Positions 7,532 through 11,230 of a stretch of DNA of 34,676 bases are shown one piece after another. Position numbers and translations under genes: made by a program. The notes under the pieces were generated by a model. It was not told the origin of the DNA. It saw only the letters and a list, made by a program, of their open reading frames with translations, and made no database searches. Source of the stretch: a virus (lineage: Duplodnaviria > Heunggongvirae > Uroviricota > Caudoviricetes); the IMG/VR virus record IMGVR_UViG_2537561603_000002; one strand, given 5' to 3'. Within the stretch, counting starts at the first letter, position 1. Every line of letters begins with the position of its first letter.

Positions 7532-7623
7532 TTACGCTGATTAACAATTCGTGCTCTTAATAATACCAGGCATATCAGGCTGATGAACGTAAAAAAACGT
7601 TTTACATCAGTAAGATTATTATA

Positions 7624-7643
7624 TACTGCAAATATAAACAGTG
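7624..7643. promoter_or_regulatory. LexA box (SOS operator) upstream of the tum/dinI-like genes
   Basis: tactgcaaatataaacagtg: CTG-N10-CAG with an AT-rich spacer, matching the LexA consensus TACTG(TA)5CAGTA, 40-60 bp upstream of ATG 7685. Confidence 0.6.
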
Positions 7644-7684
7644 GTTATGTATACAGTATTGCTTGTGGTGTCATAGGAGGAAAA

Positions 7685-7873
7685 ATGCAGGACTATTTTT
7701 TGGAGTCTTTAAAGCTCCAGCGCATTGATTTTTTTCTTAAGCTTGTAGCGGCTAGTGAGTGTAGTGATGAAGAGAAGGGGCTGGCTTTGCAGTGGGTTTC
7801 TGAACTAACAGATGAACTCATGGCAAAAATCAGAACCCACGAATACAACCGCTCAATGGATGTCATCAGTTGA
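7685..7873 (+). CDS. Small protein in tum position (candidate SOS-induced antirepressor-like)
   Basis: ATG at 7685 with SD aggagg; lies directly downstream of the LexA box in the position of 186 tum. Functional call is positional inference. Confidence 0.4.
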   Translation: MQDYFLESLKLQRIDFFLKLVAASECSDEEKGLALQWVSELTDELMAKIRTHEYNRSMDVIS

Positions 7874-7883
7874 GGTGACTTTT

Positions 7884-8117
7884 ATGCGCATTGAAATAAT
7901 GATCGATAAAGAGCAGAAGATTAGCCAGTCTATCCTGGACGCCCTTGAATCCGAGCTTTACCGCAATCTGCGCCCCCTGTATCCAAAAACGGTAATTCGT
8001 ATCCGCAAAGGTAGCTCTAACGGTGTGGAACTGACCGGACTGCAACTGGACGAAGAAAGAAAACAAGTGATGAAAATTATGCAGAAGGTGTGGGAAGACG
8101 ACAGCTGGCTGCATTAG
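7884..8117 (+). CDS. DinI-family protein (77 aa)
   Basis: MRIEIMIDKEQKISQSILDALESELYRNLRPLYPKTVIRIRKGSSNGVELTGL...KIMQKVWEDDSWLH parallels DinI (MRIEV...; conserved C-terminal W-E-[SD]-x-D-x-W); own SD gaggtg. Confidence 0.7.
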   Translation: MRIEIMIDKEQKISQSILDALESELYRNLRPLYPKTVIRIRKGSSNGVELTGLQLDEERKQVMKIMQKVWEDDSWLH

Positions 8118-8245
8118 AGAACGTTGCGGATGATAAAACTAGCTTTTACCATCTGCAAGGCTGAACAACGATTGTAGCGAGGTGTTAGGTGGTTCAAAAG
8201 TAAAGCGGTTATTTTGCCCGTAAAAGTGAACCACCTGTATCTTGA

Positions 8246-8986
8246 TCAGTTTTCTTTGAATTTTTCACTTAATCGTTTCGTCAATACTTCGACAGATTCT
8301 TTGCGACCGGAGAACAAGTCATTGACGACGTACTCCATAATCTCAAAAGCATCCTCAATGTCTTTGACTTTTACTTCATCGTAGGTATGGCTTCCGGCAT
8401 TTCCTAAAAATTTAATTGCCATAAGAGGTCTTGAAAACGATCCGTATAATTCAGGTAGCATCCCTAAACGGTGGTGTAGAGTTATGCGTTTGCCATTATC
8501 ATTACGTTCAGCTACATCCATAGCGGTTAGCATTCTTTCAACTGAAATTCGAATTAGGTTTGCTGCTGCGCCAGGCTGTATTAGGAAAATGGAAAATGAG
8601 GCTTCAAGCGGTTCGGTAATTTCTTCTGGGCATTTTTCAGGTATTTCGAAAGGATGCAGTGATGGGTAAAAGGTGAAAGGTCTGTGCCATTGATAGTACT
8701 CAATATCATTTCTTTCTTCATCCCAACCTTGTTCCCATCCACTCTTACCAGTACAGGCCACAACTTCACCACATTGCATTCTTGAACAGCGGGCCATGCA
8801 ACTGAAAATAGATGAATCCATTTCTAGTTCAAACCAATCTTCACTGCGGAATTTTCGGGTATCATGTGTGTCATACGAGACGAAACTTTCTTTAATGATC
8901 TGTAGGGTTTTCTGATTGCAGTTAGGGCAGGGCCACTCAACCTGCATATCGTGGAAAAACGCACCAGAGAGCTTGTGCACAGTCAT
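8246..8986 (-). CDS. Cargo hypothetical protein (246 aa): N-terminal Cys-rich (zinc-ribbon-like) region plus C-terminal alpha-helical domain; candidate defence protein
   Basis: Reverse-strand ORF with SD gagga upstream of ATG 8986; CPNC...CxxxCxxxxC...C cysteines; C-terminal region holds an R-x4-H motif (KRITLHH); lower GC than backbone; in the A-to-Q variable region. Confidence 0.55.
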   Translation of the reverse strand: MTVHKLSGAFFHDMQVEWPCPNCNQKTLQIIKESFVSYDTHDTRKFRSEDWFELEMDSSIFSCMARCSRMQCGEVVACTGKSGWEQGWDEERNDIEYYQWHRPFTFYPSLHPFEIPEKCPEEITEPLEASFSIFLIQPGAAANLIRISVERMLTAMDVAERNDNGKRITLHHRLGMLPELYGSFSRPLMAIKFLGNAGSHTYDEVKVKDIEDAFEIMEYVVNDLFSGRKESVEVLTKRLSEKFKEN

Positions 8987-9250
8987 TCTTTGTGTTCCTC
9001 ATTTTTATGATTGGTAGGGATTGTATCTTCATACACGATTACAGTTGCATTAAAGATAAGCCATAGCAAGCTACTGGAAAAGAGACGAAACAGCTGGGCA
9101 TATCAGATGTTTTTTCTTAAGGTAAGTTGTTGTGCATGCCTATACTGCATGAGATTGCATGATCGTTTGAGGATCGTTATTGCTAAGGCCCACCAGAACT
9201 GGCGGGCTTTTGCGTAGAGCATGCAGGTGCATGAAAACAACTACATAAAG

Positions 9251-9280
9251 CGGGCAGGCGTGGCGGGGATACGATTGCGC
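9251..9280. other. Candidate cos (cohesive end) site
   Basis: ggcgtggcggggatacgat resembles the P2/186-family cohesive-end sequence as I recall it (P2 GGCGAGGCGGGGAAAGCAC). Recalled, not verified. Confidence 0.3.
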
Positions 9281-9356
9281 GCAGAAGATTATTATTGGTA
9301 CACTGTCGGTGACTCTCTACGCAGATCTTACACATTAATTTCTAATGGGGCATGCT

Positions 9357-10157
9357 ATGATCTTTCTAAGTCATAATCACCGTGACAAAAGGTTTGTAAG
9401 TGTTATAGCGGAAAAACTAGCAGATGTTTATGGGCGTGATAACGTATTCTACGATTCTTGGTCTATCCAACCCGGAGAGGGTATTATTGACAAGATGAAT
9501 TTAGGAATGGAGAATGTATCGTTCTTTTTCTTTTTTGTCACAGAAAATAGCTTGGCAAGTAACATGGTAAAAATGGAATGGCAAAATGCTTTAATTAAGG
9601 CATCGTCCGGGAAGTGTAAATTTATACCAATACGTTGCCAGAATATATCCTTGCCTGCTCTGCTTACTCAAACGCTATATATTGATCTTTATTCGTATGG
9701 GATCGATGTGGCAATAAGACAAATTATAGATGTCATTAATCAACAAAATACGTATATTCCTAATCCTGAGAAGTATTCAAACCTCTCCTATGATATTAAG
9801 GATGATGATGGGGGTAAGATAGTGAAATTATCAGCAATGGATTTTTTAGAACCAATTGCTGATTTTATGATGATTATGGATAATACAATTAAGCATGATG
9901 ATGTTGTTGTTATGGTCAATGGAGAAAGCTCATTCACTCAGGGGTTTATTGAAAATGCATCTTTAGAAAATGGTATGAAAGTAAGTGGTGCCACTGTTGG
10001 CCTAAATCGGGGGTTAACACCAACGATGCCAATGTATGTTTCTCTTAGGTTAAAGGATGGTTCACCTTTGAATATATTTGCGGTGCTACATCGAGTAAGT
10101 ACCGAGCGTTATGCTCCTATACCACATAAAGCCGATGATGCCTTTAGAGTAAAATAA
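9357..10157 (+). CDS. TIR-domain protein (about 266 aa) with C-terminal domain of unknown function; candidate defence effector or sensor
   Basis: N-terminus MIFLSHNHRDKRFV...FYDSWSIQPGEGI...VTENSLASNMVKMEWQNAL follows the TIR pattern (FxSHxxxD, SW, conserved Glu in a W..E motif). AT-rich; alternative start at 9345; stem-loop terminator downstream. Confidence 0.6.
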   Translation: MIFLSHNHRDKRFVSVIAEKLADVYGRDNVFYDSWSIQPGEGIIDKMNLGMENVSFFFFFVTENSLASNMVKMEWQNALIKASSGKCKFIPIRCQNISLPALLTQTLYIDLYSYGIDVAIRQIIDVINQQNTYIPNPEKYSNLSYDIKDDDGGKIVKLSAMDFLEPIADFMMIMDNTIKHDDVVVMVNGESSFTQGFIENASLENGMKVSGATVGLNRGLTPTMPMYVSLRLKDGSPLNIFAVLHRVSTERYAPIPHKADDAFRVK

Positions 10158-10165
10158 AAAGCAAT

Positions 10166-10200
10166 ATGGTGGCTATATAATTAAGGCCACCAATTTATAT
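10166..10200. terminator. Stem-loop between convergent TIR gene and portal gene Q (likely bidirectional terminator)
   Basis: Inverted repeat tggtggc (10167-10173) / gccacca (10186-10192) flanked by A/T-rich sequence. Confidence 0.45.
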
Positions 10201-10201
10201 C

Positions 10202-11230
10202 TCATAAACAATAGGATGAAAATGCAATAACTTTCTCACCCAGCCAATGGTTTAACTCCTCCATGCGTTTCTGTAATGGCAAAAGTTCATTGCGCACAAA
10301 CACATTTGCGGCCTTCTCCACATCCCCAAACCCTCCAACATTATTAGGCATAATCCCCATCATTTGCGGCGGCACGCGGTGCGCAGCCATCATGTCATCA
10401 CGGCTCACGTTCTTGATATTCAAAAACTCATCCTTCGCCGCCACCTCTGACAACGGGATAATCTGAAGCCCGTCCTTTTTGCCGTTAGGCGAGTACATAA
10501 ACAGGTTGCGGAAGTTACCCGGACCTTTGGCACTTTTCATTGCATTGCGGAGGTTGTTCACGTCCTCCTGGTTCTGCGCAGCATCGGTCATGTACATGAT
10601 GAAGCCTGCATGACTACCGTTAATGTAATACTTGCGGCGGAACAGCGTGGCGGACTCATTGAGCAGGGCGGACGGAATGGCAGAAAGATAGCCGGGCAGG
10701 CCGTAGATTTCCTGGTTAATGTCCGGTTCCATCAGATGAAAAATGCTGCCTTTCGTGAACTGATACGGCTGGGTTGTCATACCGTATTGCACAAACCAGT
10801 AGGTATCCAGGTCTAACCCGCGTCGGGTGTATTTTGCCAGAGCAGGCTCAAGGGCGATAACTTCACCGAAGCGGTTCGTGCGTTTCTCCAGGTAGGCGTT
10901 ACCAAATACCAGATAGTCCTGCACAAAACGTGAAAAAGCCTGCTGGCTGAGCAGCGGGTGAGGGATGTAGGTACTGGTCAGAATGTTGCATTTCACCGCA
11001 ATTGGTGAACTGTGATGCACGGCGGCGCGGAAGGTGCGCGCCAGTCCGTCAAAGCTTACTGGCGGCTCATACCAGCGATCTGTCTGTACGCATTCCACAT
11101 AGTCCAGTAGTTCGCGGCGATCCAGAACAGGAACGGGATCACCGAAGCTGAATGCTTCGGCTGTAGTTTGACTTTTATGCCGGATCTGGTTTGTCGACGC
11201 AGCGCGGTTCTTCTTACTCTTTCCCATCAA
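10202..11230 (-). CDS. Q: Portal protein (P2 gpQ-like)
   Basis: 342-aa ORF, leftward, immediately downstream of and overlapping terminase P (ATGA-type overlap at 11227-11230); size and position match P2 Q (344 aa). Confidence 0.85.
   Translation of the reverse strand: MMGKSKKNRAASTNQIRHKSQTTAEAFSFGDPVPVLDRRELLDYVECVQTDRWYEPPVSFDGLARTFRAAVHHSSPIAVKCNILTSTYIPHPLLSQQAFSRFVQDYLVFGNAYLEKRTNRFGEVIALEPALAKYTRRGLDLDTYWFVQYGMTTQPYQFTKGSIFHLMEPDINQEIYGLPGYLSAIPSALLNESATLFRRKYYINGSHAGFIMYMTDAAQNQEDVNNLRNAMKSAKGPGNFRNLFMYSPNGKKDGLQIIPLSEVAAKDEFLNIKNVSRDDMMAAHRVPPQMMGIMPNNVGGFGDVEKAANVFVRNELLPLQKRMEELNHWLGEKVIAFSSYCL

What the first reader, a model, noticed from the sequence alone, without database searches (positions are those of the whole stretch)
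8246..10157. Divergent AT-rich cargo pair (Cys-rich 246-aa protein + TIR-domain protein) in the A-to-Q variable region: candidate undescribed defence module
Between replication gene A/tum and portal gene Q, where P2 carries tin and old, sit two genes with no phage-structural counterpart. One is a reverse-strand 246-aa protein with a zinc-ribbon-like Cys cluster and an R-x4-H motif. The other is a forward-strand ~266-aa protein whose N-terminal ~135 aa read as a TIR domain (FLSHNHRDK..., SW, conserved Glu in MVKMEWQNAL), followed by an uncharacterised C-terminal domain. Both are AT-rich, have their own SD sites, are divergently arranged and are insulated by stem-loops. TIR domains in prophage hotspots are typically NAD+-consuming or signal-producing immune effectors, but I see no ThsA-like SIR2/SLOG or Macro partner and no CBASS or Pycsar cyclase. 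The architecture therefore does not match Thoeris or other TIR systems I can recall.
Basis: partly seen in the sequence, partly recalled or inferred. Interest (0 to 1): 0.85.

Follow-up and report, generated by a model that had tools for sequence, protein, structure and literature searches.

The report
Two separate phage-defence genes flanking cos
The two genes are real and probably both protect the host against other phages, but they are two unrelated single-gene cassettes on either side of the prophage's DNA-packaging (cos) site, one being a distant relative of the already characterised RAZR RNase, not one new two-gene system.

Summary
A 246-aa Cys-rich protein (8246-8986, minus strand) and a 266-aa TIR protein (9357-10157, plus strand) lie AT-rich and divergent between DinI/gpA and portal gene Q of a Fels-2-like P2-family E. 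coli prophage.

The "undescribed pair" reading does not hold.
- The phage cos site (9258-9276) lies between them. In virion DNA the two genes sit at opposite genome ends, in two separately exchangeable slots.
- Of 5426 complete E. coli genomes, 29 carry this DUF4145 gene and 9 this TIR gene. Only 4 carry both, and those are one prophage lineage.
- Each gene has at least four different neighbours in the other slot. Only 1 of 34 viral TIR contigs carries a DUF4145 gene.

The 246-aa protein has a zinc-ribbon-like N-domain, a linker and a DUF4145/HEPN domain. It is a distant homologue of RAZR (PD-T7-4), a single-gene RNase activated by phage portal or Erf rings. It differs in having an invariant Lys where RAZR has its catalytic Arg, and a larger N-domain.

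The TIR protein belongs to a widespread family with a fixed design: an N-terminal TIR with an invariant catalytic Glu, plus an exclusive, variable beta-sandwich domain, and no conserved partner. It most likely works as a single-protein NADase sensor, like SpbK. I found no published test of it.

The parts
7685..7873 (+). Small conserved backbone ORF (62 aa, phrog_698) downstream of replication gene A
   Evidence: RefSeq WP_001154434.1; phrog_698 E=1.5e-37
7884..8117 (+). DinI-like (Tum-type) gene. It is the last backbone gene before slot 1.
   Evidence: Pfam DinI E=2.5e-22; RefSeq WP_001217562.1
8124..8236 (.). Two stem-loops (8124-8158 and 8187-8236) between the convergent DinI and DUF4145 genes. 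They are probably bidirectional terminators.
   Evidence: Inverted repeat 10/10; folds with z -4.1 and -4.3
8128..9130 (.). Exchangeable cargo slot 1, at the right end of the virion genome
   Evidence: Homology to loci with other cargo breaks at about 8116-8128 and resumes at 9131-9147
8246..8986 (-). RAZR-like protein, 246 aa. It has a zinc-ribbon-like N-domain (aa 1-99; CPxC 20-23, C67-x4-C72), a Pro-rich linker (100-120) and a DUF4145/HEPN domain (121-226; K192-x7-H200).
9131..9282 (.). Conserved spacer that is kept whatever cassettes flank it. It contains the cos region.
   Evidence: Shared with L001, L003, L004 and L005
9258..9276 (+). cos cohesive-end site, GGCGTGGCGGGGATACGAT
   Evidence: 18/19 identical to the annotated 'putative cos site' at bases 1-19 of Salmonella phage SEN8. 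The end of the SEN8 record aligns up to window 9257.
9283..10261 (.). Exchangeable cargo slot 2, at the left end of the virion genome
   Evidence: Homology breaks at 9282/9283 and resumes at 10262-10268 in loci with other cargo. Alternative cargo there is PD-T7-1, PDC-S59 or AbiU.
9357..10157 (+). TIR + beta-sandwich protein, 266 aa. The TIR domain is aa 1-127 (9357-9737, catalytic Glu74), followed by a linker and a C-terminal beta-sandwich at aa 142-256 (9780-10124).
10167..10192 (.). GC-rich hairpin between the convergent TIR and portal genes. It is probably a bidirectional terminator.
   Evidence: Fold -13.8 kcal/mol, z -3.2 on the plus strand; U-rich tail on the minus strand
10202..11227 (-). 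Portal gene Q. It is the first backbone gene after slot 2.
   Evidence: RefSeq WP_000520390.1; ORF list

Best explanation
The region holds two autonomous single-gene anti-phage cassettes. They occupy the two cargo slots on either side of the cos site of a Fels-2-like P2-family prophage.

Gene 1 (8246-8986) is a divergent member of the RAZR/PD-T7-4 family. A variable zinc-ribbon-like N-domain is inferred to dock onto a ring-shaped protein of an invading phage. That would reposition the C-terminal DUF4145/HEPN domains into an active RNase that cuts RNA non-specifically and aborts the infection.

Gene 2 (9357-10157) is a single-protein TIR immune sensor. Its variable C-terminal beta-sandwich is inferred to bind a phage component and cluster the N-terminal TIR domains. 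Clustered TIR domains form the composite active site around Glu74, and NAD+ is hydrolysed, as in SpbK.

What is shown here: the domain identities and folds, the conserved residues, the independent assortment, the cos site and the slot boundaries. What is inferred by analogy: anti-phage activity, the triggers, RNase and NADase activity, and an abortive outcome.
For: Independence of the two genes:
- 29 E. coli genomes carry the DUF4145 gene, 9 the TIR gene, and only 4 both.
- Those 4 share 25 kb of prophage at 99.3-100% identity, so they are one lineage.
- With DUF4145, slot 2 holds PDC-S59, PD-T7-1, a 324-aa protein plus a STAS-like protein, or (in SEN8) a hypothetical protein plus HNH.
- With TIR, slot 1 holds ASCH plus a restriction-enzyme fragment, a 386-aa protein, or a 111-aa protein.
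- Only 1 of 34 viral TIR contigs has a DUF4145 gene.
- No flanking ORF family is shared by more than 8 of 43 TIR loci, and the shared ones are backbone genes.
- Relatives of the TIR protein stand alone in lambdoid ren-nin gaps, a Vibrio cassette array, next to an IS element in Bacteroidota, and in a Burkholderia integrative element.
- The cos site and a conserved spacer separate the two slots.

Gene 1:
- Pfam DUF4145.
- PD-T7-4 is the only PADLOC family matched, by 37 of 51 homologues.
- hhalign to RAZR gives E=1.7e-5 over the linker and HEPN domain, aligning H200 with the catalytic H154.
- Four Cys are invariant.
- The N-domain is more variable than the HEPN domain (49% vs 63% pairwise identity), as reported for the RAZR zinc-finger domain.

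Gene 2:
- TIR_2 match and invariant Glu74.
- The best structural match is the single-protein NADase SpbK.
- The C-terminal domain occurs only in this family.
- It is far more variable than the TIR domain (32% vs 62% pairwise identity).
- The same slot elsewhere holds known single-gene defences.
- Single-protein E. coli TIR systems have been shown to defend against phages (PMC11350192).
Against: - No experiment on either protein was found.
- The position of RAZR's catalytic Arg146, whose alanine mutant loses defence, is an invariant Lys (K192) in this family. RNase activity is therefore not assured.
- The N-domain does not align to the RAZR zinc-finger domain. It is about 45 aa longer and has a Cx4C second knuckle instead of CxxC.
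- Foldseek did not retrieve the RAZR entry 9y9c, and the sequence-profile match to it is only E=0.17.
- For the TIR protein, nothing distinguishes an NAD+-depleting effector from a signal producer.
- Wang et al. found that only 12 of 32 tested E. coli TIR loci were protective.
- The 4/29 co-occurrence is above the background TIR frequency among P2-like prophages, although clonal descent explains it.
Confidence: 0.62

Rival explanations
1. The two genes form one cooperating defence module. For example, a TIR-made signal or NAD+ loss would activate the HEPN RNase, or the DUF4145 protein would sense for the TIR protein.
For: They are adjacent and divergent in 4 genomes and 1 viral contig. DUF4145-TIR-ATPase fusions exist in another organism (Anantharaman 2013).
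Against: Only 4 of 29 DUF4145 carriers and 4 of 9 TIR carriers have both genes, and those 4 are one prophage lineage. Only 1 of 34 viral TIR loci has a DUF4145 gene. The cos site and a conserved spacer lie between them, and each slot is exchanged separately. RAZR works alone. The DUF4145 protein has no recognisable nucleotide-sensor domain.
Confidence: 0.05
2. The TIR protein is a signal-generating, ThsB-like enzyme. Its ADPR-derived product would activate an effector encoded elsewhere in the host genome, rather than the protein depleting NAD+ itself.
Against: No effector gene is linked in any of 43 loci from several phyla and several kinds of mobile element. A mobile single-gene cassette (integron-like array, prophage morons) cannot rely on a host-encoded partner. 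Closer structural neighbours are self-sufficient NADases: SpbK, SARM1 and Cat1.
Confidence: 0.12
3. The DUF4145 protein is not an active RNase. With Lys in place of the catalytic Arg it would act as a nucleic-acid-binding regulator or decoy. PHROGs labels the family 'DNA binding protein'.
For: K192 replaces RAZR R146 in 51/51 homologues. RAZR R146A is inactive. phrog_1305 is annotated as a DNA binding protein. About 20% of DUF4145 domains lack the canonical R...H motif.
Against: H200, G195, N196, R146, E150, R173 and D209 are invariant or nearly so across 26-91% identity, which indicates a maintained active site. Lys can supply the same positive charge. The gene sits in a defence slot, and the PHROG label is not based on an experiment.
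Confidence: 0.15
4. The TIR protein is a lysogenic-conversion or virulence factor like TcpC or TcpB. It would interfere with animal TLR signalling rather than defend against phages.
For: Bacterial TIR proteins of pathogens (PdTIR, TcpB, AbTIR) are detectable sequence relatives of the TIR domain. The carriers include human and animal E. coli isolates.
Against: Full-length relatives occur in environmental Bacteroidota, Flavobacterium, Vibrio and marine metagenomes. No secretion signal is evident. The slot otherwise holds PD-T7-1, AbiU or PDC-S59. The catalytic Glu is invariant.
Confidence: 0.05

Closest known systems
RAZR (ring-activated zinc-finger RNase), formerly PD-T7-4; E. coli UMB1727; PDB 9y9c; Zhang et al., Nature 2026 (PMC13017515); discovered by Vassallo et al. 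2022
   Same: Both are single-gene systems. Both have the same order of parts: an N-terminal Cys-rich zinc-ribbon-type domain, a Pro-rich linker, and a C-terminal DUF4145/HEPN domain. Homology is detectable over the linker and HEPN domain (PADLOC E=1.6e-5; hhalign E=1.7e-5). The catalytic His and the GN of the motif are conserved ('KFLGNAGSH' vs 'RIVGNQAVH'). In both, the N-domain is the most variable part.
   Different: Identity over the aligned 120 columns is only about 23%. The N-domain is about 99 aa against 65 aa, its second knuckle is Cx4C rather than CSHC, and it does not align to the RAZR domain. Catalytic Arg146 is replaced by an invariant Lys. The gene is carried by a P2-family prophage next to cos. 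Trigger, oligomeric state and activity are untested.
SpbK (B. subtilis ICEBs1), a single-protein TIR NADase activated by the SPbeta portal YonE (PMC12847820, PMC8880864)
   Different: The domain order is reversed: in SpbK the sensor is N-terminal and the TIR C-terminal. The SpbK sensor is a small helical domain, whereas here it is a C-terminal beta-sandwich. Sequence identity is 16%. The trigger here is unknown.
[quoted passage not shown]
   Same: These are E. coli single-protein TIR defences that depend on the TIR catalytic residue. They are triggered by phage structural proteins (portal or tail fibre).
   Different: For TIR-V and TIR-IX the paper reports superimposable C-termini and divergent N-termini, meaning the TIR domain is C-terminal. 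That is the opposite of this protein. The accession list is not held in the library, so identity with TIR-VI or with an untested or negative cluster could not be checked.
Thoeris (ThsB TIR plus a ThsA SIR2/SLOG or other effector)
   Same: It has a TIR domain with a catalytic Glu, and there are weak ThsB profile matches.
   Different: No ThsA-type effector is present in the window or in any of 43 related loci. The extra C-terminal domain is absent from ThsB.
P2 old/tin and the gpA-gpQ cos-proximal hotspot of P2-like phages (Rousset et al. 2022, PMC9122126)
   Same: This is the same locus and the same logic. That paper reports 1,650 arrangements, and many hotspots hold more than one system.
   Different: The cargo genes differ. 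P2's tin gave no tblastn match to the DUF4145 protein. This analysis resolves the hotspot into two slots separated by cos.

Membership tests
RAZR / PD-T7-4 | C-terminal DUF4145 domain with a HEPN fold | tested here: met
RAZR / PD-T7-4 | Detectable sequence homology to RAZR or the PD-T7-4 model | tested here: met
   PADLOC PD-T7-4 E=1.6e-5 over profile positions 26-196 of 211. It is the only PADLOC family hit, by 37/51 homologues with best E=5e-7. hhalign gives probability 78.5% and E=1.7e-5 over 120 columns. It is weak by PDB profile search, E=0.17.
RAZR / PD-T7-4 | N-terminal Cys4 zinc-ribbon domain (ZFD) joined by a conserved linker | tested here: inconclusive
   C20, C23, C67 and C72 are invariant, in a CPxC...Cx4C pattern on predicted beta-hairpins. 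The linker aligns to the RAZR linker. The N-domain itself does not align to the RAZR ZFD and is about 45 aa longer. Metal binding cannot be tested here.
RAZR / PD-T7-4 | Catalytic pair Arg146 / His154 (R-x7-H) | tested here: not met
   His is conserved (H200, 51/51), but the Arg position is Lys in 51/51 (K192). RAZR R146A is inactive.
RAZR / PD-T7-4 | Functions as a single gene with no conserved partner | tested here: met
   Neighbours vary: TIR, PDC-S59, PD-T7-1, a STAS-like pair, HNH. A 51%-identical relative lies in a P1/P7-like element.
RAZR / PD-T7-4 | Activation by ring-forming phage proteins, 24-mer assembly, non-specific ssRNA cleavage, abortive infection | not testable with these tools
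   This needs phage challenge, escaper mapping, and cryo-EM or biochemistry.
Single-protein TIR NADase sensors (SpbK type; TIR-V/IX) | TIR domain with the catalytic Glu | tested here: met
   TIR_2 E=4e-23. E74 is invariant in 73/73 and aligns with the Glu of Cat1 'WDEL'.
Single-protein TIR NADase sensors (SpbK type; TIR-V/IX) | Stand-alone gene with no linked effector or cyclase | tested here: met
   No flank ORF family is shared beyond backbone genes in 43 loci. Contexts are diverse.
Single-protein TIR NADase sensors (SpbK type; TIR-V/IX) | Homologous sensor domain and domain order (N-terminal sensor, C-terminal TIR) | tested here: not met
   Here the TIR domain is N-terminal and the second domain is a C-terminal beta-sandwich. 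That domain is found only in this family.
Single-protein TIR NADase sensors (SpbK type; TIR-V/IX) | Phage-protein-triggered NAD+ depletion and protection | not testable with these tools
   Experimental.
Thoeris | ThsB TIR encoded next to a ThsA-type effector (SIR2/SLOG, Macro/TM, caspase-like) | tested here: not met
   There is no such gene in the window or in related loci. ThsB profile matches are weak, E>=7e-4.
CBASS/Pycsar/type III CRISPR TIR effectors (TIR-STING, TIR-SAVED, Cat1) | TIR fused to a cyclic-nucleotide sensor domain (STING, SAVED, CARF), next to a cyclase or CRISPR locus | tested here: not met
TIR-NLR / Avs-like (Rst_TIR-NLR) | Central STAND NTPase and C-terminal repeats | tested here: not met
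   The PADLOC TIR-NLR match covers only profile positions 4-93 of 824. The protein is 266 aa.

The most novel reading that the evidence does not exclude
The TIR + beta-sandwich protein may represent an uncharacterised family of single-protein immune sensors that spans several phyla, with more than 900 clusters at 90% identity. Its private, fast-evolving Ig/CBM-like C-terminal domain would recognise a phage structural component and switch on an N-terminal TIR NADase. That would be a sensor module and domain order not seen in SpbK, TIR-V/IX or Thoeris. Together with a Lys-variant RAZR-like RNase across the cos site, the prophage would carry two orthogonal abortive-infection effectors, one depleting NAD+ and one cleaving RNA. 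Both would have to tolerate the prophage's own portal protein.
Probability: 0.35. Interest if true: 0.55.

Novelty: new variant of a known kind. Interest (0 to 1): 0.4.

Why it matters
- It corrects a tempting error. Adjacency in a prophage map does not make an operon, and here the two genes sit at opposite ends of the packaged genome.
- It resolves the P2-family gpA-gpQ hotspot into two separately exchangeable slots anchored on a conserved cos spacer. That helps automated parsing of defence cargo in thousands of prophages.
- It flags a Lys-for-Arg subfamily of RAZR-like proteins with an enlarged recognition domain. This subfamily could test how strictly RAZR chemistry and ring recognition are constrained.
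- It flags a large, apparently untested TIR + beta-sandwich family as a cheap single-gene candidate for finding a new phage-sensing domain.

Tried and rejected
- phmmer and profile searches of PDB sequences gave only E=0.17 to RAZR.
- The search for homologous proteins with a 70-aa RAZR segment returned only fragments. RAZR residues 1-192 were instead recovered from a chimeric query against 9y9c.
- I looked for the RefSeq accessions in the literature and found none.
- The accession table of Wang et al. 2024 is not held, so I could not decide whether this TIR protein is one of their 64 clusters.
- tblastn against 50,697 phage records found only SEN8 for the DUF4145 protein and nothing for the TIR protein. 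P2 tin is not a relative.
- I rejected a shared upstream partner for the TIR family. The upstream genes in Prolixibacter, Burkholderia and E. coli S43 are unrelated by blastp.
- I rejected modular reuse of the C-terminal domain. All 33 hits among 1.84 billion representatives are this family, fragments of it, or two repetitive proteins with multiple short matches.
- The consensus promoter and terminator scan was uninformative, at or below shuffle expectation.
- The memory-based P2/186 cos pattern did not match within 2 mismatches. The site was confirmed against the SEN8 annotation instead.
Full report
**1. The observation**

- Both ORFs are present as described. A 246-aa ORF lies at 8246-8986 on the minus strand, and a TIR ORF ends at 10157 on the plus strand.
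- RefSeq starts the TIR protein at 9357 (266 aa, WP_000576798.1). The alignment of 73 homologues, which all begin 'MIF(L/I)SHN', supports that start.
- GC content falls to 0.34-0.45 across 7550-10250, against 0.51-0.62 in the flanking backbone.
- The window is a Fels-2/186-like P2-family (Peduoviridae) prophage of E. coli. It is 100% identical over 25 kb to prophages in strains TUM14697, Rb-23 and 1002W03, and 99.3% identical in SCU-115.
- The local gene order is gpA, a small ORF, DinI-like, DUF4145 (minus strand), TIR (plus strand), portal Q (minus strand), terminase P.
- Stem-loops lie at the 3' ends of both cargo genes, with fold z-scores of -2.5 to -4.3.
- SD-like purine runs precede both starts.

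**2. The two genes are not a pair**

In 5426 complete E. coli genomes, the DUF4145 gene (at least 99% identity) occurs in 29 and the TIR gene in 9. Both occur in only 4. Those 4 carry the same prophage.

What fills the other slot varies:

| Gene present | Cargo in the other slot |
|---|---|
| DUF4145 | PDC-S59-type P-loop protein (WS3294A and others) |
| DUF4145 | PD-T7-1 (MS8345, FDAARGOS_1300; E=1e-196) |
| DUF4145 | 324-aa protein plus a STAS-like protein (PCP06021) |
| DUF4145 | hypothetical protein plus HNH endonuclease (Salmonella phage SEN8) |
| TIR | ASCH gene plus a restriction-enzyme fragment |
| TIR | 386-aa protein that also replaces DinI (S43, EA7) |
| TIR | 111-aa protein (SOI121) |

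- blastn against these loci places the breakpoints at about 8128 and 9131 for slot 1, and at 9283 and about 10262 for slot 2. A 150-bp segment between the slots is conserved in all of them.
- That segment contains GGCGTGGCGGGGATACGAT at 9258-9276. It matches 18 of 19 bases of the annotated cos site at bases 1-19 of phage SEN8, and the end of the SEN8 record aligns up to window 9257.
- In packaged DNA, therefore, the DUF4145 gene is the last gene at one end and the TIR gene is the first gene at the other end. They are neighbours only in the circular or integrated form.
- Only 1 of 34 IMG/VR contigs with a TIR-family gene has a DUF4145 or RAZR-like gene within 5 kb, and that contig is identical to the window.
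- Clustering all flanking ORFs of 43 TIR loci finds no family shared by more than 8 loci. The shared ones are lambdoid nin/Q genes, terminase or portal.
- This locus is the cos-proximal gpA-gpQ hotspot described by Rousset et al. 2022, who already noted that many P2 hotspots hold more than one system.

**3. The 246-aa protein**

- Pfam finds DUF4145 at aa 130-218 (E=5e-13), and PADLOC finds only PD-T7-4 (E=1.6e-5). Of 51 homologues, 37 hit PD-T7-4 and nothing else.
- PD-T7-4 was renamed RAZR in Nature 2026. It is a single-gene abortive-infection protein with an N-terminal Cys4 zinc ribbon, a conserved linker and a DUF4145/HEPN RNase (catalytic R146 and H154).
- RAZR is inactive alone. It is activated when 24 copies assemble around a phage portal or an Erf-like ring, and the zinc-finger domain sets its specificity.
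- I recovered RAZR residues 1-192 from PDB 9y9c and compared them with the family profile. hhalign gives E=1.7e-5 (probability 78.5%) over ours 100-227 and RAZR 58-183, which covers the linker and the HEPN domain.
- C20, C23, C67 and C72 are invariant, and C63 and C78 nearly so. They lie on predicted beta-hairpins, which is consistent with a zinc ribbon.

Differences from RAZR:
- The N-domain is about 99 aa against 65 aa. It does not align, and its second knuckle is Cx4C.
- The residue aligned with catalytic Arg146 is Lys192 in all 51 homologues. H200 (aligned with H154), G195 and N196 are kept.
- As in RAZR, the N-domain is the more variable part: 49% mean pairwise identity against 63% for the HEPN domain.
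- A 51%-identical relative sits in a P1/P7-like element beside a RelA/SpoT gene, again without a TIR gene.

**4. The TIR protein**

- TIR_2 matches aa 6-117 (E=4e-23), and no library names the last 130 residues.
- A search of 5.8 billion clusters finds 945 relatives. Almost all are full-length proteins of 255-280 aa, from Enterobacteriaceae, Vibrio, Burkholderia, Flavobacterium, Prolixibacter and Bacteroidales.
- Glu74, in the 'S..S..VK.EWQNA' helix, is invariant, as are D10, K11, W35 and the QPG motif.
- The AF2 model (pLDDT 88.6) shows a TIR domain (1-127), a flexible linker, and a beta-sandwich (142-256) with pLDDT in the mid-90s.
- An exhaustive phmmer search with the C-terminal domain against 1.84 billion representatives returns 33 hits. 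They are this family, N-terminally truncated fragments of it, or two repetitive proteins with multiple short matches. The domain is therefore private to this architecture.
- The C-terminal domain is much more variable than the TIR domain (32% against 62% pairwise identity), as expected for a recognition module.
- Contexts are those of a self-sufficient cassette. They include the P2 slot 2, the lambdoid ren-nin gap, a Vibrio array of small cassettes next to a ParE/Phd pair, a position beside an IS3 element in Bacteroidota, a Burkholderia integrative element, and positions next to terminase genes in several viral contigs.

**5. Mechanism**

Shown here: the domain identities, the conserved residues, autonomy, and a location in a slot that elsewhere holds PD-T7-1, AbiU and PDC-S59.

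Inferred by analogy:
- The DUF4145 protein is a RAZR-type phage-activated RNase.
- The TIR protein is a sensor-NADase. Target binding by its C-terminal domain would cluster the TIR domains into the active assembly, as shown for SpbK with the portal YonE and suggested for E. coli TIR-V and TIR-IX.

Uncertainties:
- Whether Lys192 supports catalysis.
- Whether the TIR protein depletes NAD+ or makes a signal.
- What the triggers are.

**6. Comparison and novelty**

- The DUF4145 gene is a divergent member or variant of a characterised family.
- The TIR gene belongs to the known class of single-protein TIR defences, but with a reversed domain order and a sensor domain that is not described in the papers I could search.
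- Wang et al. 2024 tested 32 of 64 E. coli TIR clusters. Their accession list is not available here, so prior testing cannot be excluded.
- The 'new two-gene TIR system' reading is not supported.

**7. Verdict**

Interest is moderate. The useful results are the cos-split two-slot anatomy, the Lys-variant RAZR-like subfamily, and a large, untested TIR + beta-sandwich family that a one-gene experiment could probe.

Noticed in passing
window 9131-9282 (cos at 9258-9276): A conserved segment of about 150 bp containing the cos site separates two independently exchangeable cargo slots. It probably acts as the recombination anchor for cassette swapping on either side.
   Followed up: yes
L028:4629-6038 (E. 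coli MS8345), L001:7892-9160 (WS3294A), L003:5676-7373 (Fels-2 STM2723.1), L029:4649-5961 (PCP06021): Alternative cargo in the TIR slot is PD-T7-1 (E=1e-196), PDC-S59 P-loop candidate (5e-72), AbiU/AIPR (3e-112), or an unannotated 324-aa protein with a STAS-like DUF4325 partner. That last pair is a possible untested two-gene candidate.
   Followed up: partly
L005:3097-4257 (S43/EA7, WP_032248694.1), L032:2743-3078 (SOI121, WP_001059831.1), L003:4677-5408 (Fels-2 STM2726), L026:128-1126 (SEN8 gp01): Several alternative cargo genes have no Pfam or PADLOC match at all: the first three in the DUF4145 slot, and SEN8 gp01 in slot 2. The 386-aa gene also replaces the DinI-like gene. These are unexplored hotspot cargo.
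   Followed up: partly
window 8246-8986, residues K192 and R173: Where RAZR has catalytic R146 this family has an invariant K192, and where RAZR has K132 this family has an invariant R173. This may be a swap of the basic residues around the active site.
   Followed up: partly
window 10202-11227 (portal gene Q), next to 9357-10157 and 8246-8986: [quoted passage not shown] Here both candidate sensors are encoded beside the prophage's own portal gene, which raises the question of how self-activation is avoided on induction.
   Followed up: no
L042-L056, L066 (IMG/VR contigs): In several unrelated viral contigs the TIR-family gene lies directly next to the small and large terminase genes, again at a packaging-proximal genome end.
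   Followed up: partly
L022-L025 (P1/P7-like elements, E. coli): A 51%-identical DUF4145 relative sits between a RecA-dependent nuclease (Ref-like) gene and a 213-aa protein plus a RelA/SpoT-domain protein of 375 aa. This looks like another variable defence-like island in phage-plasmids.
   Followed up: no
window 7685-7873: A small conserved ORF (62 aa, phrog_698, function unknown) lies between gpA and the DinI-like gene. It is retained in all the P2-like loci examined, even where DinI is replaced.
   Followed up: no
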